Positions 4,895-56,258 of a stretch of DNA of 64,000 nucleotides are shown here, one piece after another. The position numbers and the translations under genes were made by a program. The DNA is from an uncultured Lachnospiraceae bacterium (GTDB lineage Bacteria; Bacillota; Clostridia; Lachnospirales; Lachnospiraceae), in the NCBI GenBank assembly GCA_903789615.1, contig CAIFEV010000009.1:3296-67295 (forward strand), in the 5' to 3' direction. The notes beneath the pieces are model-generated. The model searched no databases and was not told the origin of the DNA. It was given only the letters and a program-made list of their open reading frames with translations. The first letter of the stretch is position 1. Every line of letters starts with the position of its first letter.

Positions 4895-4977
4895 GATGCT
4901 ATACTATAGGCAGTATGCAAACGTCCGGGCAGAGAGCAGAAATGCCGCTGTTCCCGGAGACAGGAGAAAACAGAAAA

Positions 4978-6162
4978 ATGGATGAACTGAGACTTGCCGT
5001 GATCGGAATCGGCAATATGGGGTCTGCACATGCCAGCCACATCGCACAGGGCGCGGTGGAAAAGGCCAGGCTGAGTGCTGTGTGCGACATCAGCCCGGAC
5101 AGAAGAGCGTGGGCAGCGCAGGAACTGGGAGACGGCGTGAAGATCTATGAGGATTACCATCAGCTTCTGGATGAGCACGCCGCGGACGCCGTCATCATCG
5201 CAGTGCCCCATCCGCTGCACCCGGTCATCGGGATTGAGGCGCTTTCCAAAGGGTATCATGTCCTCACGGAAAAGCCGGAGGGTATCGACAAGGCTTCGGT
5301 GATGAAGCTCAACGAGTGCGCGGAAAAGTCGGGCCGTACTTTTGCCATTATGTTTAATCAGCGCACGAATCCGCTGTTTCAGAAGATGCGGGAGCTGGTG
5401 AAGAGCGGACAGCTCGGACATCTGCGGCACTTCATCTGGATCGTGAACAACTGGTACCGCACGCAGGCGTATTATGATTCCGGGAGCTGGCGCGCGACCT
5501 GGAACGGCGAGGGAGGCGGCGTGCTGATGAATCAGTGCCCGCACAACCTTGACATCTGGCAGTGGATCATGGGCGTCCCGGACCGGCTCGTGGCGGAGTG
5601 CGGCGTGTCGCGGTATCACCACATCAACGTGGAGGATGAGGCGACGATCACGGGTGTGTACAAAAACGGCGCGACGGCGGTATTTGTCACGTCCACGGGC
5701 GAGCAGCCGGGCACGAACCGGATGGAAATCTCCGGATCAAAGGGCAAGGCGGTCATCGAAAACGGAAAACTGATGTTCTGGGAAAATGCGACTGACACCG
5801 ACACGGTTACATACACAGCCGACCGGTCGAGTCCGAAGGCGGACACGACGTACCGGGAGTGGGTTCAGGAAGGCCGGGAGCCGGCGCACATCGGGATTCT
5901 GAATAATTTCACGCGGGCGGTTCTTTTCGGCGAACCGCTGCTCTCGCCGGGTATTGAGGGAATTCATGAGCTGGAGATCACCAATGCGGCGTATCTTTCC
6001 TCCTGGACAAACCGCTGGGTTGACCTGCCGCTTGATGAGAACGAGTACCTGGCACAGCTTGCGAAAAAGCAGGAGGAGGAGCGCGCGGCCGGTACAAGCC
6101 GCAGCGTAAGGAAGGAGGCGGCCGACGGGTCTTACTCCGAGAGATGGATGGTCCGCTGGTGA
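4978..6162 (+). CDS. Gfo/Idh/MocA-family oxidoreductase
   Basis: MDELRLAVIGIGNMGSAHA is a Rossmann N-terminus, and EKP is present. ATG at 4978 follows CAGGAGAAAA. Confidence 0.85.
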   Translation: MDELRLAVIGIGNMGSAHASHIAQGAVEKARLSAVCDISPDRRAWAAQELGDGVKIYEDYHQLLDEHAADAVIIAVPHPLHPVIGIEALSKGYHVLTEKPEGIDKASVMKLNECAEKSGRTFAIMFNQRTNPLFQKMRELVKSGQLGHLRHFIWIVNNWYRTQAYYDSGSWRATWNGEGGGVLMNQCPHNLDIWQWIMGVPDRLVAECGVSRYHHINVEDEATITGVYKNGATAVFVTSTGEQPGTNRMEISGSKGKAVIENGKLMFWENATDTDTVTYTADRSSPKADTTYREWVQEGREPAHIGILNNFTRAVLFGEPLLSPGIEGIHELEITNAAYLSSWTNRWVDLPLDENEYLAQLAKKQEEERAAGTSRSVRKEAADGSYSERWMVRW

Positions 6163-12570: not shown

Positions 12571-12612
12571 TGAATCCTGAATGAATTCTGGATTACCCTG
12601 GTTCACGGCGCA

Positions 12613-12959
12613 CATCGGAAACCCCGGTTATGAGGGGAACCCGATGACATCCTGCTTTCTTTCCGGAAAGGGCAGCATCGGGGAAACGACTTGGTATGCA
12701 TTTCCGGGGACAAATTCATACCCCTGCGGGGTGAGGTGCAACGAAATAACAATCCTCTTGATTTCCGTTGCACTTTTAATCCGTTTTCAGGAAGACAGGC
12801 AACGAAAACAAATTTTCTTATGATTTCCGTTGCACTTTTCTCTTGATTTTTGAAAAAAGTGCAACGGAATCAGCATTTTCCATTGATTTCGTTGCACTCC
12901 TGTCAAAATCAGGGCAAAAAGTGCAACGGAATTCGAACATTTTCCGAATCCCGTTGCAC
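12613..12959. repeat. Hairpin-repeat array A: 2 CATCGG-type units plus 4 GTGCAACGGAAT/ATTCCGTTGCAC units, about 61-62 bp period
   Basis: Hairpins lie at 12613-12646, about 12675-12710, 12736-12773, 12798-12835, 12858-12898 and 12920-12959. No credible ORF is present. The array lies between convergent genes. Confidence 0.85.
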
Positions 12960-13071
12960 CCGTGACCCTTGGCAGGGGAAAGGCATAAACCACAGTTCCC
13001 GATGCCGCTCTAAAATTCCCTATGCGCTGCAAAATCCGATTCGCCACCGCGCATAAGGAGGGCTTCCATCC

Positions 13072-16327: not shown

Positions 16328-16343
16328 CTTCTTCATCTATGCC

Positions 16344-16504
16344 AATAGCGCCTCTTCATATGGAAATGAAGGAGTGACAGGGATGTTGTCCTCTGCCCCC
16401 ACGAAAGCCTCCTGCCGGGGATTTCCGTTCGGCGGTGATTACCTTTCAGCAGCTTCAAAGCCTGCCGGCTCAACTGTTTACTCTTCTGCACCGCAGCCTC
16501 TATT
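16344..16504 (-). promoter_or_regulatory. Candidate lysine (L-box) riboswitch aptamer
   Basis: The minus-strand RNA carries the L-box hallmark strings in the expected order. These are AAUAGAGGCUGCGG, GAAGAGUAAACAG, CUGCUGAAAGG, CACCGCCGAAC, CCCUGUCAC and GAAGAGGCGCUAUU. P1 would be AAUAG/CUAUU and P2 closure GCGGUG/CACCGC. P3 looks unusually short, so the call is uncertain. Confidence 0.45.
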
Positions 16505-16643
16505 CTCTCAGACAGACTAATTATAAAAAGAAAGTGAAGTTTGTCAAGAAAAATATGGAAAATGTTTCCGCGCTTTGACAGGGGACGCGTGGCATTGTAA
16601 GATGGAAGTACTTACAAACAGGACAGAAAAGAGGTATGGACAC

Positions 16644-31630: not shown

Positions 31631-31683
31631 GCGCATAAGCCAGCACCAGAGCATGGAAAGGACGCTGCCGGAAACCGGACTTG

Positions 31684-32019
31684 TCATCGGATTTTTGAAA
31701 ACGGACTGCTCCCGATGATTTTTTCGGACCTGCTGCCGGATGGCGATCATCGGAATTGTCATTATATTTGTTTCCGATGACTTTAAGAGGGCTTTTGAGC
31801 CATTCGAATCATCGGGAAAGCTAAAGTCAGGGCTATCCGATGATAACTTGCCTTTTCAGGCCCTGAATTGTCATCGGAATAGGATTGGTTTTCTAATTTT
31901 GATGAGGGCGGGGAATTTTAGGACGCCAATACTCATCGGAAAGGCAGACATGTGGTAATTCCGGTGATTTTGAAACGGCAATACTCATCGGAAAGGCAGG
32001 CTGACGGTGATTTTGATGA
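31684..32019. repeat. Hairpin-repeat array B: 6 TCATCGGAA/TTCCGATGA units, about 62 bp period
   Basis: Hairpins lie at 31684-31718, 31747-31780, 31809-31843, 31871-31905, 31933-31967 and 31985-32019. The array is non-coding and lies between the T-box terminator and the aspS start. Confidence 0.85.
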
Positions 32020-32130: not shown

Positions 32131-33465
32131 ATGGAATTTGTCGATGGAAGTGTCACAAGGCCGTATCTGACCGGCGATGAGATCATCAGCCAGGGCAGGG
32201 TGGGGCAGGAAGTAACCGTGCGGGGTGCCATACACAATATCCGCGACATGGCGGATATCGCATTTGTCATTCTGAGACAGGCGTACTGCGTCGTACAGTG
32301 CACGCTGGAGGAGGGAAAGGCGAACCTCTCCGTAAAAGACATCACCGAGGGCATGACCGTGGAGATCCGCGGCATGGCGGTGAAGGAAGACCGGGCGCCG
32401 AACGGTTTTGAGATCCACACGGAAGAGATCAAAATCCTCTCCACGCCGGCTGTCGCGCAGATGCCGGTTCCGATCAAGAACTGGAAACTGAAGACGTCGC
32501 TTGAGACGATTCTGAACCTGCGCTCGGTGACGCTGCGCAACCTGCGCGAGAGAAGCAAGTTCCGGATTCAGGAGGGTATCGTGCGCGGTTTCCGCGACTA
32601 CCTGCACGCGCAGGGATTCACGGAAATTCACACGCCCAAGATCAACGCGCGCTCGGTTGAGTCCGGCGCGACGCTCTTTAAGCTCGAGTATTTCGGCAAG
32701 CACGCCGTGCTGGCGCAGAGCCCGCAGACCTACAAGCAGATGTGCGTGGGCGCGTTTGACCGCGTGTTTGAGGTGGGCCCGGTGTTCCGCGCCGAGAAGC
32801 ACAACACGCCGCGGCACCTGAACGAGTACACCTCGCTTGACTTCGAGATGGGATACATCGACAGCTTTGAGGATCTGATGGAGATGGAGACCGGCTTCAT
32901 CAAATACACGATGGACCTGCTGAAGCGCGAGTATCCTAAGGAGATCGCACAGCTGAAGGCCGACGTCCCGGATGTTGACAAAATCCCGCAGTGCCGGTTC
33001 GACGAGGCAAAGCGCCTGGTGTCCGAAAAGTACAACCGCCCGATCCGCAACCCGTTTGACCTGGAGCCGGAGGAGGAGAAGCTGATCGGCCGCTATTTCA
33101 AGGAAGAGTATGGTTCGGATTTCGTATTTGTCACGTATTATCCGAGCAAGAAGCGCCCGTTCTACGCGATGGACGATCCGAAGGATGACAAATTCACCCT
33201 CTCCTTTGACCTGCTGTTCCGCGGCGTGGAGATCACGACCGGAGGACAGAGAATCCATGAGCTGGATCAGCTGCTGGCGAAAATGGAGAAGAAGAGAATG
33301 ACGCCGGAGGGGATGGAGCACTATCTGATGGCCTTCAAGTACGGCATGCCGCCGCACGGGGGACTGGGCATCGGTCTGGAGCGTTTCACGATGCAGCTTC
33401 TGGGCGAGGAGAATGTCCGCGAGACCTGCCTGTTCCCGAGAGACCTCTCCCGCCTGGAGCCATGA
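32131..33465 (+). CDS. aspS: Aspartate--tRNA ligase, short (archaeal/type-2) form, probably non-discriminating
   Basis: 444 aa class II enzyme with FRAE, an SFDL...GGQR block and GLGIGLER. RBS CAGGAGG lies upstream. It is followed directly by gatCAB. Confidence 0.88.
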   Translation: MEFVDGSVTRPYLTGDEIISQGRVGQEVTVRGAIHNIRDMADIAFVILRQAYCVVQCTLEEGKANLSVKDITEGMTVEIRGMAVKEDRAPNGFEIHTEEIKILSTPAVAQMPVPIKNWKLKTSLETILNLRSVTLRNLRERSKFRIQEGIVRGFRDYLHAQGFTEIHTPKINARSVESGATLFKLEYFGKHAVLAQSPQTYKQMCVGAFDRVFEVGPVFRAEKHNTPRHLNEYTSLDFEMGYIDSFEDLMEMETGFIKYTMDLLKREYPKEIAQLKADVPDVDKIPQCRFDEAKRLVSEKYNRPIRNPFDLEPEEEKLIGRYFKEEYGSDFVFVTYYPSKKRPFYAMDDPKDDKFTLSFDLLFRGVEITTGGQRIHELDQLLAKMEKKRMTPEGMEHYLMAFKYGMPPHGGLGIGLERFTMQLLGEENVRETCLFPRDLSRLEP

Positions 33466-40774: not shown

Positions 40775-40782
40775 GTGGGTTT

Positions 40783-40809
40783 GGCGGATTTGGCGGATTT
40801 GGCGGATTT
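40783..40809. repeat. Perfect tandem 9-mer (GGCGGATTT) x3
   Basis: Read directly from the sequence, immediately after the MBL gene stop. Confidence 0.95.
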
Positions 40810-40866
40810 TTAGGCGGGCGGCCGGCGGCTCTGGCGGCGGGATGGAGGCATCCTGTGGTGAGCTGG

Positions 40867-41512
40867 GCGCATCGGGAAGACTTCCTGTGATTGAGCTGGG
40901 CGCATCGGGAACCTGCCATGAACTTGCTTTCCGATGCGCTCCCGGCTCCACGGAAAGTGGGGCATCAGTTCCATGGCCTCAAGCTGTTCGAACAGTATAC
41001 CTCCCGGATCCATGGAAGATGGGGCATCAGCGGAAAGGCCCCAATAATTTGGATTCCGATGCGGGGCGGCCGGCGGCTGACTTTGAGAAGCATCGGAAAT
41101 GAGCAGCAGGTGACAGATTTGATGATTTTTTGCGTGCCTTGAAAATAGCCTGTCATCAAAATTGAACGGGATTGGGCAGTTTCCGATGATTATTAAAGGT
41201 CAAATCGGTGGTTCAGGCATCTATTTAATCTGAGAAATATAAATCCGATGACGAGAAAGCCAGAAATGGGCTAAAAAATCATCGGGAATTAAATTAGGAA
41301 CCTGCGTTCCGATGAATGGCAGTTTTCCGGGGGGCACAAAAATCATCGGAATTCACGCAAAAACTTGTTTTTCGATGCATGGGTCCCTTCGGAGGGCACA
41401 AAAATCATCGAGAGTACACCAATAACTTGCGTTCCGATGCGTGGAGGCTTTTGTTGACCCCGTTGAAGGAGCGTGAGCATCGGAAACTTGCCAAGAATTT
41501 GGATTCCGATGC
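40867..41512. repeat. Hairpin-repeat array C1: about 10 GCATCGGAA/TTCCGATGC-type units
   Basis: Clear hairpins lie at 40902-40937, 41024-41062, 41090-41125, 41153-41189, 41279-41315, 41343-41378, 41405-41440 and 41477-41512. Degenerate units lie between them. ORFs in the track here are repeat read-through. Confidence 0.85.
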
Positions 41513-41711
41513 GTTGCATTCTGATGCGCTGCAGGCGCTTCAATTGCCGTCCCGGGAGGAACCTCGGGGAAACTTGGAAGAACCCCAGGAGGAGCCTCGG
41601 GAGAAAAAGAGGTCCGTCAGAAATCCCAGCCAGCTTTGTTCCTGCAAGTTTATCGTATACCTTCCGGCTTGCCCCGCCCTGTGGTATGATATTTACAGCT
41701 GGTTCAGGCGC

Positions 41712-41742
41712 CAGATTTTTCAGATTTTTTCAGCAGATTTTT
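41712..41742. repeat. Tandem CAGATTTTT(T) x3 microrepeat
   Basis: Read directly: CAGATTTTT CAGATTTTTT CAG CAGATTTTT. Confidence 0.9.
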
Positions 41743-41912
41743 CAATAGTCAGTTCCTGTGCATTTCAGAGCATGTCATACATGCCTTATTTTCGGCGGCC
41801 TTTTCAGGCATTTTTCATTACCCGCGGCATTTCTGCCGGCAGGGAAACAAATAAGAATAATCGGAAGAAGTCACGTAAACATAATAATTCTGCAAATTTG
41901 TGGAGGGAATGG

Positions 41913-42731
41913 ATGAAAAGCAAACTGATGAAGGCGGCAGAAGTATATCCGGAAGCAGGAAAGCGGCTGTCAGAGTTGAAGCGGACAGAAAGAATGCTGG
42001 AAGGCCGTCTGCTAAACTGTCCGCAGGGGAAGATTCATCTTGTGACGCGAGGTGAGCAGGTGATGTACTATCTGCGGAGACGCTCTTCGGAACGGTCCGG
42101 CGTGTACATCTCCGTTCGGGATGAGCAGAAAATCAGGACATATCTGCAGAAGGCATACGACGAGAAGCTGCTTCGTCTTGTAAAACAGGAAATAGGGGAA
42201 CTGGAAACGTTTTTGCAGACAAATGCAGAATTCCCGGAGCGGATCAGGAATCTGTACACTAAATTTCCGGATAGGGCAAGAAAATTCATCGATGCGGCCG
42301 ATCTGCCGGATGACGAGCTGGCGAGAAGATGGCTTGAAGCGGCATTTGATGCAAAGGAAATACAGGATATTCCGGTGAAGCTTGTGACAGAGAACGGCGA
42401 ATATGTCCGCTCGAAGTCGGAGCTGAACATCGCCAATGCGCTGAACAGACGGAAAGTGCCATATAAATACGAGTGTCCGCTCAAACTGCGCAGCGGTACG
42501 ATTTATCCGGACTTCACGATTCTGAATGTCAGGAAAAGAAAAGTTCTGTACTGGGAGCACCGCGGGATGATGGATGATCGCGATTATGCAAGACATGCGG
42601 TCCACAGACTCAGGGAATATCAGCAGAATCAGATTTATCCGGGCGACGGTCTGATTATAACAGAAGAAACGTCAGCCAGTCCTCTGGGGACAGATGAGAT
42701 CTATGCGGTTATCCGTAAGTTCTGTCTGTGA
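41913..42731 (+). CDS. Hypothetical protein with C-terminal PD-(D/E)xK-like (restriction-endonuclease-fold) motif pattern
   Basis: ATG at 41913 lies 4-5 nt after GGAGGG. The N-terminal half is coiled-coil-like. The C-terminal half has VRSKSELNIANAL...YPDFTILNV...LYWEHRGMMDD, an E...D...E-x-x-G spacing like TnsA/Vsr-type nucleases. This is recalled as a common Clostridia hypothetical-protein family. Confidence 0.7.
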   Translation: MKSKLMKAAEVYPEAGKRLSELKRTERMLEGRLLNCPQGKIHLVTRGEQVMYYLRRRSSERSGVYISVRDEQKIRTYLQKAYDEKLLRLVKQEIGELETFLQTNAEFPERIRNLYTKFPDRARKFIDAADLPDDELARRWLEAAFDAKEIQDIPVKLVTENGEYVRSKSELNIANALNRRKVPYKYECPLKLRSGTIYPDFTILNVRKRKVLYWEHRGMMDDRDYARHAVHRLREYQQNQIYPGDGLIITEETSASPLGTDEIYAVIRKFCL

Positions 42732-42766
42732 GATGAATGGCGGCGGCCAAAAGCTGATTATGAGAG

Positions 42767-43176
42767 GCATCGGAATTAGCAGCAGGCGGCGAATTGATGA
42801 TTTTTGCGTGCCCTGAATGCGGCACGTCATCAAAACTGAACCGGATAGAAAGATTCCGATGTTTTTTACGAGCATTGGAAACCTGCCTGTCATCGAAAAT
42901 GAATCAGATAGGAAATTTCCGATGATTTTTAAGGGGCAAATCGTTGATTCAGGCATCTATTTAACCTGAGAAAATTAATTCCGATGACGAGAAAGCTAGA
43001 AAGGGGCTAAAAAATCATCGGGAATCAAATACAAACCTGCGCTCCGATGAATGGCAGATTCCAAGCGGCCACAAAAGTCAGCGAAATATACGCAAAAACT
43101 TGTTTTTCGATGCATGGGTACCTTCGGTGACGGAGCGGAGGCATCGGAAGCTTGTTTTAAACTTGCTTTCCGATGC
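42767..43176. repeat. Hairpin-repeat array C2, homologous to part of C1
   Basis: Hairpins lie at 42767-42800, 42827-42861, 42890-42925, 43015-43050, about 43076-43114 and 43141-43176. The first three are followed by T-runs. Long blocks are collinear with 41064-41391. Confidence 0.85.
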
Positions 43177-43192
43177 GTGGCGCCTTCCCATT

Positions 43193-43254
43193 CAGCCTTC
43201 CCCCTCAGCCTTCCCCCTCAGCCTTCCCCCTCATCTTCCCCCTCAGCCTTCCCT
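43193..43254. repeat. Tandem 13-mer CAGCCTTCCCCCT (3 perfect copies plus 2 degenerate)
   Basis: Read directly from the sequence, between array C2 and the truncated binding-protein gene. Confidence 0.95.
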
Positions 43255-43309
43255 TTTTCCTTCTATTTCCTTTTCCGCCAGTTCACAGGACTGGCGCACG
43301 GCGTCCTGA

Positions 43310-43842
43310 AAGTCGGAGGCGATGGCGGAGAGCAGGTCGCCAGCATCATTCAGCAGAATCTGCAGGAGGCCGGCGTGACGATTCAGATTCAGGTCCAGGA
43401 GGCGGCGACGATGTTCGCGGGTCTGTTCTCCGGAAGCGTCGGGATCTCACTCGTCAACGCCAGCTACAGCTCCAACCCGATGTGGCTGAGGAGTTTCCTG
43501 ACCAATGACGCGACGACCTATATCAACGTTCAGGACGACACCTGGGACGAAATGTATGACAGATTTGTCGCGGCCGATACGGAGGAAGGCGAGATTGCGG
43601 CTGCCAAAGAGTTCCAGCAGCTGTGGCTTGAGAAGGAACCGTGCATCTTCTATGCGGCCAGTTACGAGGACTACCCGCACTCGGCAAGACTCGGGAACGC
43701 TGTCGGACTTCTTAATGACGCAAGCGGTAACCTTACTGTCTGGAACTGGTGCAGGTATATTTTGCTCAGCAGGATAAACAGGCATACCGGACACAACTGC
43801 GGGATTGTCAAACGGGATTTCAGGGATTATACTGAGTCCTGA
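43310..43842 (+). pseudogene. 5'-truncated remnant of an ABC transporter family-5 (Opp/Dpp-like) substrate-binding protein
   Basis: Only the C-terminal ~150 aa look SBP_5-like (...VASIIQQNLQEAGVTIQIQVQEAATMF...NVQDDTWDEMYDRF...AAAKEFQQLWLEKEPCIFY...). There is no signal peptide or N-lobe. The upstream part of the ORF reads through repeats. Confidence 0.6.
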
Positions 43843-54108: not shown

Positions 54109-54144
54109 TCATCGGAAAGCAAGCCAGGCGGCGATCCCGGTGCA
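54109..54144. repeat. Isolated degenerate hairpin unit of the CATCGGAA family
   Basis: TCATCGGAAA...ATCCCGGTGCA. A further half-site TCACCGGAAA lies at 54170-54179. Confidence 0.5.
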
Positions 54145-54273
54145 TAGCGGGGGTTATGGGGCAAAAATGTCACCGGAAATCATGAAACAGGCTGTTTTTG
54201 CTGCCCAGCCCAAAGTGCCCGGACCAAGTGTCCGGCCCAAGAAAGACAAGCAAAACAAGCAAGCAAAACAGGT

Positions 54274-54300
54274 AAAACCAGCAAAACCAGCAAAACCAGG
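54274..54300. repeat. Tandem 9-mer (AAAACCAGC) x3 within an A/C-rich low-complexity tract
   Basis: Read directly. On the minus strand it forms the GGTTTTGCT-repeat tail after the hairpin. Confidence 0.9.
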
Positions 54301-54349: not shown

Positions 54350-56258
54350 GTGCGCCCGGCGGCGCACGTTTCTAACCGGTGAAAGTCCGGAATCCGCCCG
54401 GTAGTGGGAAGGATACAGCCGAAGGCAAGGGTGTCCATCGCGAGGTGGAATCTGAAGGAAGCCGGATTCGGGGAACATACTAACCCGAGGGCAAACCTCC
54501 GGCCTGACGAACAGAAACCTCATATAAGGTTTTCGCTGAGGGTAAGACTGCAAGACAAGCCGAAGCCCGGTAACTACACGGAATCAGCGGGAATAAATGA
54601 GGCAGGCAGATGGAGGGAAAGAAACGTGTGGTACCCGGGGAGACCTGCGCGGTACGCTCTGAGAAGAGTAACCATCGCCAATAGCGGTGCTGAACACGCA
54701 GGAGTCAGCAGAGGCCATAGTAGCGGGGAACCGTGAAGGGCTGAATCAACAGGAGTTCCAAGTACGACCCGGAAAGGAGGAAGGAGCAATGGGTACAGAA
54801 AACGCCAGCAACGACGGCTGCTCACAGAGGGATAGCGCGGAACGCAAAGGGCATGTGAGAGCGCACCGCTCTTTCAACCGGATATGGAAGGAAAGGGACA
54901 GTGCAGAGCCGGACATTCTCGGAAAGGTCCTGGATAAGGATAACCTTAACCGTGCTTATAAGAGAGTGAAGGCAAATAAGGGAGCGCCCGGAATCGATGG
55001 GATGACCATAGAAGATGCGCTTCCATGGCTGAGGGAGCATCAGAATGAGCTGATCGCAAAGATACGGAGCGGACATTACACTCCGTCACCTGTGAGACGC
55101 AAAGAGATCCCAAAGCCAGACGGCGGAGTACGTAAGCCTGGTATTCCGACGGTGTTCGACCGTATCATCCAGCAGGCAATAGCACAGCAGCTGATGCCCA
55201 TCTATGAACCGTTGTTCTCAGACGGAAGCTACGGCTACCGTCCGGGAAGAAGTGCGAAGGATGCCATTCGGAAGATAAAGGAGTATGCGGAACAGGGATA
55301 CACAAGGGCAGTTGTTCTTGACCTCTCCAAATATTTTGACACGATCAACCATGTGAAACTGCTCAATCTTCTGAGACAGAACGTCAAAGACGAGAGAGTA
55401 ATCCAGCTGATCAAGCGTTATCTGAAGAGTGGAGTAATGGAAGACGGTGTTGTAGTTCCGACAGAAGAAGGTTCCCCGCAGGGCGGAAATCTTTCGCCAT
55501 TGCTCGCGAACGTCTATCTGAACGAATTTGACCAGGAATTCAGAAGACGAGGGGTGCCATGCGTCCGCTACGCAGACGACATCGTGGTGCTGGCAAGGAG
55601 TGAACGGGCATCGCAGAGACTTTTGGAATCCAGCGTGAAGTATCTTGAAGGAACCTTGAAACTGAAGGTGAATCGGGAGAAAAGCAGAACGGTCAGCGTG
55701 TTTGCAATCCGAAATTTTAAGTACCTTGGCTTCTGTTTCGGGAAAGGTAAGAACGGAGTGTATGTCCGTGTCCATGCGAAGTCATGGAAGAAGTTCAAGG
55801 ATAAACTGCGAATGCTCACTTCCCGGAGTAAATGCGGAAGCATAGTAGCGGCTATGAAGCGAATAGAGGTTTCTGCGCGCGGATGGCTGAATTACTACGG
55901 TATAGCAGACATGAAGAGCAACATCGCCGACCTGGACGGCTGGCTGTACAGACGCGTACGGATGTGTATCTGGAAACAGTGGAAACTGCCACGGACGCGC
56001 AAACGCAGGCTGATGGGGCTGGGGCTGCCCGAATGGGCAGCCTGTGAAGGCGCCTACAGCCGGAAAGCATACTGGCGAATGGCGAACACAGGTGTGGTTT
56101 AAGACAGCCTTAACAAAAGAAAGACTGATACGCTGGGGCTTTTATGATCTAGCCGCAGCATATCAGTCTGCGCACGTCAACTGTTGAAACCGCCGTGTAC
56201 CGAACGGTACGCACGGTGGTGTGAGAGGACGGCGGCTAATCACCGCCTCCTACTCGAT
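54350..56258 (+). mobile_element. Group II intron (bacterial, class C-like); 3' boundary uncertain by a few nt
   Basis: The 5' end is GTGCGCCCGG. Domain V is ACCGCCGTGTACC-GAAC-GGTACGCACGGTGGT. Domain VI is GAGGAC-GGCGG-CTAATCA-CCGCC-TCCT[A]C with a bulged A at 56252. It encloses the RT/maturase ORF. Confidence 0.85.
54789..56102 (+). CDS. Group II intron reverse transcriptase/maturase (no endonuclease domain)
   Basis: RT blocks are present (PKPDGGVRKPGIPTVFDRIIQQA, GSPQGGNLSPLLANVYL, RYADDIVVLA). The X/maturase region has RGWLNYYG. No HNH motif is present. ATG at 54789 follows GGAAAGGAGGAAGGAG. Confidence 0.9.
   Translation: MGTENASNDGCSQRDSAERKGHVRAHRSFNRIWKERDSAEPDILGKVLDKDNLNRAYKRVKANKGAPGIDGMTIEDALPWLREHQNELIAKIRSGHYTPSPVRRKEIPKPDGGVRKPGIPTVFDRIIQQAIAQQLMPIYEPLFSDGSYGYRPGRSAKDAIRKIKEYAEQGYTRAVVLDLSKYFDTINHVKLLNLLRQNVKDERVIQLIKRYLKSGVMEDGVVVPTEEGSPQGGNLSPLLANVYLNEFDQEFRRRGVPCVRYADDIVVLARSERASQRLLESSVKYLEGTLKLKVNREKSRTVSVFAIRNFKYLGFCFGKGKNGVYVRVHAKSWKKFKDKLRMLTSRSKCGSIVAAMKRIEVSARGWLNYYGIADMKSNIADLDGWLYRRVRMCIWKQWKLPRTRKRRLMGLGLPEWAACEGAYSRKAYWRMANTGVV

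What the first reader, a model, noticed from the sequence alone, without database searches (positions are those of the whole stretch)
40867..43176. A lone nuclease-fold gene bracketed by two homologous ~350-400 bp hairpin-repeat arrays, next to a truncated gene
The segment at about 41064-41391 and the segment at about 42740-43127 are collinear direct repeats roughly 1.68 kb apart. They share long near-identical blocks. Examples are TTCAGGCATCTATTTAA[T/C]CTGAGAAA, TCCGATGACGAGAAAGC[C/T]AGAAA[T/G]GGGCTAAAAAATCATCGGGAAT and ACGCAAAAACTTGTTTTTCGATGCATGGGT[C/A]CCTTCGG. By eye most positions are identical, but this was not computed. Each copy is itself a chain of 35-40 nt hairpins (GCATCGGAA-N15-20-TTCCGATGC). 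The right copy has two units (42827-42861 and 42890-42925) where the left has one (41153-41189). That is copy-number variation by one unit, as seen in modular BOX-type repeats. The only gene between the copies is 41913-42731, a PD-(D/E)xK-like protein. Immediately to the right lie a 13-mer tandem repeat and a 5'-truncated binding-protein gene, which suggests this 2.5 kb block arrived or rearranged here. A structured-repeat family physically wrapped around a nuclease-fold gene recalls REP/RAYT-type partnerships, but with a different enzyme fold.
Basis: partly seen in the sequence, partly recalled or inferred. Interest (0 to 1): 0.7.

Follow-up and report, generated by a model that had tools for sequence, protein, structure and literature searches.

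The report
Nuclease gene wrapped in hairpin-repeat arrays
A large, unnamed family of nuclease-fold genes in Lachnospiraceae gut and rumen bacteria almost always sits next to tandem arrays of 62-base hairpin repeats whose stem sequence differs between species, a gene-plus-repeat partnership I found described nowhere.

Summary
Window 41076-41392 and 42753-43127 are collinear direct repeats (283 bp, 83%, E=9e-71), differing by whole 62-63 bp units. Both flank a 272-aa gene with a confident PD-(D/E)xK C-terminal domain and no Pfam or NCBIfam family.

This is one case of a general pattern. In 71 of 80 species-level loci, homologues (44-79% identity) lie beside arrays of the same design. Each unit has a 6-10 bp stem with a CGNTG core and a roughly 20-nt A-rich linker; the usual period is 62. 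Stem sequences differ between species and between paralogues in one genome, but stay complementary.

Arrays usually lie upstream on the gene strand. They run to the ribosome-binding site with no terminator. Seventeen loci share guaA upstream, which indicates vertical inheritance. The window holds two more arrays without a gene (31.7 kb, 12.8 kb).

My best reading (0.35) is a REP/RAYT-like ("REPtron") partnership that uses a different enzyme fold. The main rival (0.25) is a type III toxin-antitoxin-like RNA array. The claim that the block recently arrived here is not supported. No Rfam family matched, and four literature searches found no description of it.

The parts
40780..40809 (.). 9-bp tandem repeat (TTTGGCGGA x3.3) just after the stop of the MBL-fold hydrolase gene; it marks the outer left edge of the repeat region
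   Evidence: TRF; sequence
40859..41530 (+). Upstream hairpin-repeat array of about 10 units. The period is 62-63 and the arms are TTCCGATG(A/C) / (T/G)CATCGGAA. It contains the block 41076-41392 that is duplicated downstream of the gene.
   Evidence: covariance-model hits 41046-41493 on the + strand; BLASTN against the right flank
41531..41912 (+). A 380-bp non-repeat spacer ending in the ribosome-binding site GGAGGG. It holds two weak terminator-like hairpins (41699-41714, 41770-41784), and no consensus promoter was found. The spacer is unusually long for the family, where the typical gap is 40-130 bp.
41913..42731 (+). Gene for a 272-aa protein. Residues 1-150 form an N-terminal coiled-coil plus beta-hairpin domain with no structural neighbour. 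Residues about 158-272 form a C-terminal PD-(D/E)xK nuclease domain. K168, E170, D200, E215 and H216 are invariant.
42733..43181 (+). Downstream hairpin-repeat array of about 7 units that starts at the stop codon. It is collinear with the upstream array at 78-83% identity and has one extra 63-bp unit.
   Evidence: covariance-model hits 42846-43157
43182..43253 (.). 13-bp tandem repeat (GCCTTCCCCCTCA x5.6) at the junction between the right array and the gene remnant
43255..43842 (+). Probable 5'-truncated remnant of a family-5 solute-binding protein gene. Only profile positions 299-354 of 368 match, at E=0.004, below Pfam's cut-off.
   Evidence: no Pfam hit on record for this ORF
31680..32010 (+). 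Array of the same family without a nuclease gene. It has 5-6 units at period 62 with the same arms, CCGATGA / TCATCGG. It lies about 100 nt upstream of a class II aminoacyl-tRNA synthetase gene (32131-33465).
   Evidence: no nuclease remnant nearby by tblastn
12600..13040 (.). Second gene-less array, lying between convergent genes. It has one CATCGG-type unit and then 3-4 units with variant arms TTCCGTTGCAC / GTGCAACGGAA at period 62. The strand call is ambiguous.

Best explanation
The gene and the arrays form one conserved two-part module. The parts are a Lachnospiraceae nuclease of the PD-(D/E)xK fold and its cognate hairpin repeat. I propose that it works like a REPtron (a RAYT gene plus its REP repeats), with a different enzyme.

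Proposed mechanism:
- The protein probably oligomerises through its N-terminal coiled coil.
- It recognises the CGNTG-core inverted repeat as a DNA hairpin or cruciform.
- Nicking or cutting there provokes repair and template switching. This adds or removes whole 62-bp units, keeps the stems of all units in a genome alike (concerted evolution), and occasionally seeds arrays at other intergenic sites.
- The gene itself sits between two consecutive arms of an array. It appears to be expressed only by read-through across the hairpins.

Shown:
- the fold
- the gene-array association
- the stem covariation
- the paralogue-specific stems
- arrays without a gene
- gain or loss of whole units between strains
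- the synteny

Inferred:
- that the protein binds or cuts the hairpin
- that the substrate is DNA
- that the protein drives array dynamics
For: Association:
- 71 of 80 loci of homologues from distinct species carry an array (covariance model 56, TRF 50, k-mer test 45). Hits lie almost entirely within about 700 bp of the gene.
- Enrichment against distant windows of the same loci is 51/143 vs 7/246, Fisher p=2.6e-18.

Specificity:
- Stems differ between species but remain complementary. Eight of 10 stem pairs show changes on both sides, and 0 of 500 shuffles reach the observed covariation. RNAalifold finds the same stem independently.
- Paralogues in one genome have different stems: RUI374 TACCCCGAG vs GGCATCG; S22M_St_7 GCATCGG vs CAGGGAACC; UBA4285 CATCGGAA vs GCTGAAT.
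- Stem type tracks the protein tree.

Sequence-level recognition and a DNA-like pattern:
- C15, G16, T18 and G19 of the arm are nearly invariant across 29 arrays.
- The six core stem pairs contain only Watson-Crick pairs and no G-U.
- Within arrays there is no excess of sense-strand G-T mismatches (59 G-T vs 109 A-C).

DNA-type relatives of the nuclease domain: C-termini of AAA ATPase and RecD-like helicases, PADLOC PDC-S68, the R2 endonuclease domain and DrdV.

REPtron-like genetics:
- There are one to a few gene copies per genome.
- guaA lies directly upstream in 17 of 81 loci despite different stems.
- No full-length homologue occurs in the plasmid collection, and the phage collection holds only a 30%-identity partial one.
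- Arrays without the gene exist in the same genome with the same arms (window 31.7 kb and 12.8 kb). They also occur 1-2 kb away in L016, L017 and L071.

Dynamics and constraint:
- Two strains with the identical protein differ by a 125-bp indel, exactly two units.
- The window's two flanks differ by whole units.
- Array units are more conserved than four-fold degenerate sites of the adjacent gene, for example 0.68 vs 0.32 against a shuffled baseline of 0.48.

Expression: read-through expression damped by flanking hairpins has been proposed for RAYT genes, and repeat-specific REPtrons are described in PMC3733652.
Against: - No biochemistry exists, and neither binding nor cleavage of the hairpin was tested.
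- The genome-wide copy number of the arrays is unknown. I saw only 2 gene-less arrays in 64 kb of window and about 3 in roughly 300 kb of distant flanks. Classical REPs number in the hundreds.
- PD-(D/E)xK enzymes do not form the covalent intermediates that HUH transposases use, so the propagation mechanism cannot be the same as for RAYT.
- The strict tandem arrangement, the mostly conserved polarity relative to the gene, and the way arrays run to the ribosome-binding site fit an RNA-level role at least as well.
- Polarity and adjacency could partly reflect shared ancestry of the loci rather than repeated selection.
- A distant homologue (30% identity, L209) has no array.
Confidence: 0.35

Rival explanations
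1. Type III toxin-antitoxin-like, or autoregulatory, RNA module. The array is transcribed as the leader (and sometimes the trailer) of the nuclease mRNA. The protein binds, and perhaps cleaves, the 62-nt hairpin units, which restrain its activity or its synthesis. This would be a new type III-like family with a PD-(D/E)xK toxin.
For: - The layout is tandem near-identical repeats directly upstream of a small nuclease gene on the same strand.
- Arrays run to within 10-60 nt of the ribosome-binding site with no room for a promoter, so they are very probably co-transcribed.
- The A-rich linker lies on the sense strand in most loci.
- A 62-nt repeat and a 272-aa protein fall inside the ranges tabulated for toxIN loci (31-62 nt, 70-288 aa). 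Cognate, fast-diverging repeat-toxin pairs are typical of type III systems (PMC3401426).
- Some PD-(D/E)xK enzymes cut RNA. Cap-snatching endonucleases and Card1 appear among the weak fold matches.
Against: - None of 45 loci has a terminator-like hairpin plus T-run between the array and the gene, which is a listed criterion for type III loci (PMC3401426).
- There is no similarity to ToxN, CptN or TenpN.
- The core stem has no G-U pairs, and there is no sense-strand wobble bias.
- Arrays also occur downstream of the gene, in inverted orientation in a few loci (L066, L017, L012), and far from any nuclease gene.
- In some arrays (L071, window) only the arms are conserved between units.
- Conserved guaA synteny is unusual for toxin-antitoxin loci.
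Confidence: 0.25
2. Passive cis element. The hairpin arrays are expanded copies of the upstream gene's terminator hairpin. They act only as a structured leader or insulator that throttles read-through into a potentially harmful nuclease gene. The nuclease does not recognise them.
For: - In guaA-linked loci the first hairpin is the guaA terminator itself: CGATGCCCC...GGGGCATCG followed by a T-run. The array follows it directly with related arms.
- No promoter or terminator lies between array and gene.
- Tandem repeats can change unit number by slippage alone.
Against: - It does not explain why both arms change together in every unit of an array, or why they differ between paralogues in one genome.
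- It does not explain why a CGNTG core is held constant.
- It does not explain arrays downstream of the gene, or arrays at unrelated loci with the same arms.
- Array hairpins are followed by A-rich rather than T-rich sequence, so they are not intrinsic terminators on the sense strand.
Confidence: 0.15
3. The nuclease gene is, or was, a selfish element that inserts into pre-existing hairpin arrays, as some insertion sequences target REP sequences. On this view the arrays exist for other reasons and the gene is a lodger.
For: - The ORF sits exactly between two consecutive arms: inside a hairpin loop in L081 and L083, and inside a linker in L023 and L058.
- Arrays exist without the gene.
- Many homologues lie at contig ends.
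Against: - The window's two flanks are duplicates rather than two halves of one array.
- There are no terminal repeats or target duplications of constant form, and the junction position within the unit varies.
- Copy number is one to a few per genome, and guaA synteny holds across 17 species.
- The family is absent from the plasmid collection and almost absent from the phage collection.
- Contig ends are expected next to any tandem repeat.
Confidence: 0.1

Closest known systems
REPtrons: RAYT (REP-associated tyrosine transposase) genes flanked by their cognate REP/REPIN repeats (PMC3116915, PMC5581495, PMC3733652)
   Same: - A low-copy, vertically inherited gene for a nucleic-acid-cutting enzyme is flanked by short palindromic repeats.
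- The same repeats also occur at other intergenic sites.
- Different gene copies in one genome carry different repeat types.
- Expression probably depends on read-through across the hairpins.
- Repeat clusters vary in unit number.
   Different: - The enzyme has a PD-(D/E)xK fold, not an HUH/Y1 fold.
- The repeats form strictly phased direct tandem arrays (62 bp) rather than inverted REP pairs.
- There is no GTAG or CGTC tag.
- The flanking arrays are in direct orientation.
- High genome-wide copy number is not shown.
- The host is Lachnospiraceae (Firmicutes). The REP survey I checked (PMC3733652) mentions neither Firmicutes nor Clostridia.
Type III toxin-antitoxin systems (ToxIN, CptIN, TenpIN; PMC3401426)
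   Same: - A tandem array of short direct repeats lies immediately upstream of a small nuclease gene on the same strand.
- Repeat and protein diverge together.
- Repeat length and protein length fall within the reported ranges.
- These systems are common in Lachnospiraceae chromosomes.
   Different: - There is no terminator between repeats and gene (0 of 45).
- The protein fold is unrelated to ToxN.
- There are up to 11 units, and arrays also occur downstream and at gene-less sites.
- Stems are Watson-Crick only.
- Synteny with guaA is conserved.
BIME-2 clusters of E. coli (alternating REP units in tandem); from my own knowledge
   Same: Regularly spaced arrays of palindromic units in intergenic regions, with variable unit number.
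   Different: BIME units alternate in orientation and motif. They belong to the RAYT/REP system and are found in Proteobacteria.
C-terminal nuclease domain of PADLOC candidate PDC-S68 and of plasmid-borne AAA ATPase / RecD-like helicases
   Same: Sequence homology to residues about 158-270 (8e-28 to PDC-S68; 33-54% identity in tblastn).
   Different: Those proteins are about 1200 aa helicase-nuclease fusions. They lack the N-terminal coiled-coil domain, and I did not examine them for arrays.
   Same: Copy-number variation by whole repeat modules.
   Different: BOX elements have a boxA-boxB(n)-boxC layout and no dedicated adjacent gene. No sequence or architectural similarity was seen here.

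Membership tests
PD-(D/E)xK nuclease superfamily | Alpha-beta-beta-beta-alpha-beta core carrying conserved acidic (and Lys) catalytic residues | tested here: met
   - The AlphaFold2 model has pLDDT 91.8 with the expected element order at 168-251.
- Foldseek's best matches are the R2 restriction-like endonuclease domain (probability 0.98, E=0.02), DrdV, AF1548 and Card1.
- PADLOC PDC-S68 C-terminus scores 8e-28 and HEAT_CxxC_PD-DEXK 5e-4.
- K168, E170, D200, E215 and H216 are invariant in 42 sequences.
- The Foldseek E-values themselves are weak, so membership rests on the combined evidence.
REPtron (RAYT + REP) | The associated gene encodes an HUH/Y1 (IS200-like) transposase | tested here: not met
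   There is no Pfam or NCBIfam hit of any kind, and the fold is PD-(D/E)xK.
REPtron (RAYT + REP) | The gene is flanked by its cognate palindromic repeats, with a separate repeat type for each gene copy | tested here: met
   Arrays are present in 71 of 80 loci. Paralogues in five genomes carry different arms.
REPtron (RAYT + REP) | The repeats are dispersed in high copy number through the genome's intergenic regions | tested here: inconclusive
   There are two gene-less arrays in the 64-kb window and a few in the flanks of other loci. No whole genome could be scanned, and the metagenome pattern scan returned only chance matches.
REPtron (RAYT + REP) | A GTAG (or CGTC) tag at one end of the palindrome | tested here: not met
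   The flanks are ...AAATC before the stem and (G)AAA after it, and the core is CGNTG.
Type III toxin-antitoxin | [quoted passage not shown] | tested here: met
   Upstream arrays of 2-11 units lie 40-450 bp from the start codon in most loci, and the best covariance-model strand is mostly the gene strand.
Type III toxin-antitoxin | A short palindromic terminator between the repeats and the toxin gene | tested here: not met
   None of 45 loci has a terminator-like site (stem plus T-run) between array end and start codon. The window has two weak candidates, no more than chance would give.
Type III toxin-antitoxin | The toxin is a ToxN/CptN/TenpN-type endoribonuclease | tested here: not met
   No such hit appears in PADLOC, Pfam or the PDB fold search.
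Type III toxin-antitoxin | The repeat RNA is processed to units that bind and inhibit the toxin | not testable with these tools
   This needs expression data and biochemistry.
CRISPR array | Identical repeats separated by unrelated spacers, with cas genes nearby | tested here: not met
   Whole units, including loops and linkers, are 75-95% alike within arrays. Where they have diverged they are still homologous. No cas genes lie nearby.
Any Rfam RNA family | A match to a curated covariance model | tested here: not met
   No hit was found in or near the arrays at the gathering threshold or at E<=1.

The most novel reading that the evidence does not exclude
The 62-nt hairpin units are the dedicated nucleic-acid partner of a previously unrecognised, very large nuclease family (2,858 clusters at 50% identity with E<=1e-30). 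Two forms of this reading remain open. In the first, this is a REP-type genome-structuring system run by a restriction-endonuclease-fold enzyme, so hairpin-repeat 'domesticated mobile DNA' arose independently of HUH transposases. In the second, it is a new type III-like protein-RNA system in which a PD-(D/E)xK nuclease is held in check by, or guided by, processed repeat RNAs.
Probability: 0.5. Interest if true: 0.85.

Novelty: new variant of a known kind. Interest (0 to 1): 0.66.

Why it matters
Lachnospiraceae are among the most abundant bacteria of the human gut and the rumen. This protein family has thousands of sequence clusters yet carries no name, no Pfam domain and no solved relative for its N-terminal half.

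A near-obligate link between such a gene and a structured repeat that co-varies with it marks a specific protein-nucleic-acid system. Links of this kind led to CRISPR, to the REP/RAYT system and to type III toxin-antitoxins. If the enzyme acts on DNA hairpins, REP-like repeat systems have evolved at least twice with unrelated enzymes. If it acts on RNA, this is a new toxin-antitoxin or regulatory class.

There are practical consequences too. The arrays break metagenome assemblies, since many homologues sit at contig ends. Their species-specific stems and variable unit number could serve as strain markers. The cognate pairs, one protein with one 6-10 bp stem, offer a natural series for studying how recognition specificity evolves.

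Tried and rejected
1. **CRISPR-like array.** Rejected. The 'spacers' are homologous between units and there are no cas genes.
2. **Known RNA family.** No Rfam hit at either threshold.
3. **Sense-strand wobble test for an RNA hairpin.** There is no G-T excess (59 G-T vs 109 A-C; 15 vs 17 loci). At the stem base both T.G and C.A occur. No strand could be called.
4. **Helical-phasing idea** (periods 62/73/84/105 as whole DNA turns, hence a DNA-binding lattice). The extra length always falls on the hairpin-loop side, while the linker side stays at 28-32 nt. Loop growth explains this equally well, and a period-98 array does not fit. I did not use it as evidence.
5. **Inner stem in the hairpin loop.** It is present in only about 13 of 29 units (mean z -0.63, p about 0.03-0.06), so it is not a defining feature.
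6. **Metagenome scan** for CCGATGA-N-TCATCGG-N-CCGATG. It returned 120 stretches from soil, sea and sediment. All were chance matches in coding DNA, and none held the gene.
7. **N-terminal domain.** The domain-only model is confident (pLDDT 91.6) but has no significant PDB neighbour, only prefoldin-like coiled coils at E>0.04. A profile search against PDB sequences found nothing useful.
8. **Phage or plasmid carriage.** There is only a 30%-identity partial homologue, without an array, in a virome fragment. Plasmids hold only the C-terminal domain, inside large helicases.
9. **Fixed insertion point of the gene within the unit.** There is none. The nearest upstream arm is X' in 16 loci and X in 11.
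10. **Hidden nuclease pseudogenes beside the gene-less arrays in the window.** None found.
11. **Promoter scan of the window locus.** No consensus site found.
Full report
**1. The observation**

The region reads as the finder described. BLASTN of the DNA upstream of the gene against the DNA downstream gives two alignments:
- 41112-41392 against 42848-43127: 283 columns, 83% identity, E=9e-71.
- 41076-41195 against 42753-42868: 120 columns, 78% identity, shifted by about 60 bp.

The shift shows that the right copy has one extra unit (also D6). The left copy has an extra unit at 41390-41444, and the terminal units match too (D1 and D2).

TRF reports a period of 62. The motifs CATCGG and CCGATG alternate at about 28 and 35 nt. 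The hairpin pattern is far above chance, with 5 matches against 0.01 expected.

The arrays are longer than reported, about 40859-41530 and 42733-43181. The right array begins at the stop codon of the gene.

**2. The gene**

41913-42731 encodes 272 aa. It has no Pfam, NCBIfam or PDB sequence match.

Evidence on the fold:
- Residues 158-269 match the C-terminus of PADLOC candidate PDC-S68 (8e-28) and a PD-DExK model.
- The alignment-based AlphaFold2 model is confident (pLDDT 91.8). Its C-terminal half has the restriction-endonuclease-like core.
- The best Foldseek matches are the R2 endonuclease domain, DrdV, AF1548 and Card1. All are weak in E-value but consistent with one another.
- K168, E170, D200, E215 and H216 are invariant in 42 homologues.
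- The same C-terminal domain ends large AAA ATPase and RecD-like helicases on plasmids.
- The N-terminal 150 residues (two long helices, a beta-hairpin and short helices) have no significant structural neighbour.

The family is large. There are 1,291 clusters at 90% identity in the word-indexed search, nearly all unnamed or labelled 'hypothetical', and the named ones come from Lachnospiraceae. In the exhaustive search, 2,858 clusters at 50% identity score E<=1e-30.

**3. The pattern recurs across the family**

I fetched 80 loci of homologues (44-79% identity) from distinct GTDB species, all Lachnospiraceae or unclassified Clostridia.
- TRF finds period 62-63 arrays of 2-11 units beside the gene in most loci. 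A few have period 73, 84 or 124-125. Most arrays lie upstream and end 40-130 bp before the start codon. Some lie downstream or on both sides.
- A covariance model built from 29 units finds 285 units in 56 loci, almost all within about 700 bp of the gene and mostly on the gene strand.
- Combining the covariance model, TRF and an inverted k-mer test, 71 of 80 loci have an array. L010 has one by eye, and two of the remaining loci have under 100 bp of upstream flank.
- Gene-adjacent 1.5-kb windows carry such repeats in 51 of 143 cases, against 7 of 246 for windows 1.5-4 kb away (p=2.6e-18). The few distant hits I inspected were chance matches inside genes.
- Same-family direct arrays on both sides, as in the window, also occur in L081 (536 bp, 88%), L023, L083 and L084.

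**4. Anatomy of the unit**

Each unit consists of:
- a 5' arm
- a loop, usually 21-28 nt and often G+C-rich (7 to about 47 nt in variants)
- a complementary 3' arm
- an A-rich linker of about 20 nt that tends to start with (G)AAA and end with AAATC

Two registers are possible, because arms alternate. Three observations favour arm-loop-arm with the A-rich stretch as linker:
- Where neighbouring units have different arms, each unit is self-complementary in this register. Examples are L072 3270-3400 and L063/L085, whose arm extensions of 8-11 bp are unit-specific.
- Arrays with longer periods add their extra length on the loop side.
- About half of the loops contain a small inner stem.

Across 29 arrays the stem shows strong covariation. 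Eight of 10 pairs change on both sides, and 0 of 500 shuffles reach the observed score. RNAalifold predicts the same stem.

The core reads CGNTGN / NCANCG. Four positions are nearly invariant and two covary. This combination of a fixed core with a few compensating positions looks like sequence-specific recognition of a paired element, not just a need for any hairpin.

**5. Evidence that gene and array belong together**

- Paralogues in one genome have different arms in five genomes, and arm type follows the protein tree.
- In 17 of 81 loci the upstream neighbour is guaA on the same strand, while other neighbours vary. Array and gene have therefore been inherited vertically at that site while the arms changed from species to species.
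- The guaA terminator hairpin itself carries CGATGCCCC / GGGGCATCG arms, and the array follows it directly.
- Consensus units are more conserved between species than four-fold degenerate sites of the adjacent gene. Examples are 0.68 vs 0.32, 0.65 vs 0.49 and 0.62 vs 0.50, against a shuffled baseline of 0.48 +/- 0.03.
- Two strains with the identical protein differ by a 125-bp indel, exactly two units.
- The ORF sits between two consecutive arms: in a loop in L081 and L083, and in a linker in L023 and L058.

**6. Arrays without the gene**

With filters off, the covariance model hits only four places in the 64-kb window:
- the two flanks of the gene
- 31702-31949, with the same arms, about 100 nt upstream of a class II aminoacyl-tRNA synthetase gene
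- 12755-12939, with variant arms GTGCAACGGAA, between convergent genes

tblastn finds no nuclease remnant beside either gene-less array. A few other loci have arrays 1-2 kb from the gene (L016, L017, L071).

The family is therefore dispersed, at roughly one array per 30-100 kb in the sequence I could see. I could not scan a whole genome. The one metagenome scan returned only chance matches.

**7. DNA or RNA?**

Points favouring RNA:
- Arrays mostly share the gene's strand.
- They reach the ribosome-binding site with no room for a promoter.
- They have no terminator before the gene in any of 45 loci.

They are therefore very probably transcribed as the mRNA leader, by read-through or from an upstream promoter.

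Points favouring DNA:
- The six core stem pairs contain no G-U pair in 29 arrays.
- Mismatches inside arrays show no sense-strand wobble excess.
- The nuclease domain's relatives are DNA enzymes.
- Arrays also occur downstream, inverted in a few loci, and at unrelated sites.

Neither side is decisive.

**8. Explanations**

I rank first (0.35) a REPtron-like partnership, in which the nuclease recognises its cognate hairpin in DNA and its action drives unit gain and loss, homogenisation and occasional spread. It accounts for the following:
- adjacency of gene and array
- cognate stems
- gene-less arrays
- low copy number and vertical inheritance
- read-through expression
- Watson-Crick-only covariation

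These features are described for RAYT/REP systems (PMC3733652; PMC5581495 and PMC3116915).

Second (0.25) is a type III toxin-antitoxin-like or autoregulatory RNA array. The layout, repeat length and protein length fit (PMC3401426). The terminator criterion, the toxin fold, and the gene-less and downstream arrays do not.

Third (0.15) is a passive structured leader derived from the guaA terminator. Fourth (0.10) is a gene that lodges in pre-existing arrays.

Taken more broadly, I put at about 0.6-0.7 the claim that the hairpin is the nuclease's specific ligand, whatever its chemistry.

**9. The window locus in context**

Lachnospira sp. UBA4285 has the same MatE - MBL hydrolase - array - gene order. 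There the gene is fused to the array at about codon 50, there is no downstream array, and a different gene follows. The module is therefore old at this site, and only the right side has been rearranged.

This fits the 13-mer tandem repeat and the weak C-terminal solute-binding-protein remnant at 43255-43842. The downstream array is best read as a diverged duplicate (78-83% identity) of the upstream one, not as a sign of recent insertion.

The window locus is atypical in one respect: a 380-bp spacer separates the array from the gene.

**10. Novelty**

The arrays match no Rfam family, and the protein matches no Pfam or NCBIfam family. Four literature searches (type III toxin-antitoxin, Lachnospiraceae repeats, REP/RAYT, PD-DExK) found no description of this pairing.

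I file it as a new variant of a known kind. It is a repeat-plus-dedicated-nuclease module that resembles REPtrons and type III toxin-antitoxin loci but fails defining tests of both.

Noticed in passing
window 31680-32010: A 5-6 unit array of the same hairpin family, with identical arms and period 62 but no nuclease gene. It ends about 100 nt upstream of a class II (Asp/Lys/Asn-type) aminoacyl-tRNA synthetase gene at 32131-33465, a position where a regulatory leader might be expected.
   Followed up: partly
window 12600-13040: A gene-less array between convergent genes. Its arms switch from CATCGG-type to GTGCAACGGAA / TTCCGTTGCAC, a second stem type in the same genome. This could point to a second, unseen paralogue of the nuclease.
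   Followed up: partly
L019, L022, L033, L063, L067, L070, L072, L076 (first 100-200 bp after the guaA stop codon): The intrinsic terminator of guaA (GMP synthase) has conserved CGATGCCCC...GGGGCATCG arms across many species. It is the first hairpin of the array, so the repeat family may have grown out of this terminator.
   Followed up: partly
L071 3560-3680 and 6039-6290 (Lacrimispora saccharolytica An861): A second, unrelated 63-nt repeat family (GTGAGGTTGATTCGCGCGGGAG...) lies in opposite orientations on the two sides of the nuclease gene and a neighbouring 342-aa ORF (4937-5965; cysteine-rich N-terminus, not scanned against any family library). It is interleaved with ATACATCGG-type units.
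   Followed up: no
L010 3700-4020 (Lachnospira sp. UBA4285, orthologous locus): The orthologue is 5'-truncated. The array is joined directly to about codon 50 of the gene, through either a deletion of about 800 bp or an assembly collapse across the repeats.
   Followed up: partly
L003 4801-5330 vs L008 1192-1840: Two strains encoding the identical protein differ by a clean 125-bp insertion or deletion, exactly two repeat units, in the downstream array.
   Followed up: yes
window 54434-54741 and ORF 54687-56102: Group II intron domains (Rfam D1-D4-3 at 144.6 bits and D1-D4-1 at 53.9 bits) overlap the start of a 471-aa ORF, presumably the intron-encoded protein. Short tandem repeats lie just upstream (54202-54299), along with a weak hit of the hairpin model (54127-54186, E=0.017).
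   Followed up: no
window 16338-16510 (- strand): Lysine riboswitch aptamer (68.3 bits).
   Followed up: no
window 40780-40809 and 43182-43253: Two unrelated short tandem repeats (a 9-mer x3.3 and a 13-mer x5.6) sit at the two outer edges of the array-gene-array block.
   Followed up: no
table (L015, L018, L024, L026, L028, L031, L045, L047, L050, L057 and others): Many homologues begin within 30-250 bp of a contig end, and many database contigs carrying them are only about 1 kb long. The arrays evidently break short-read assemblies, so the family's genomic context is under-sampled in metagenomes.
   Followed up: partly
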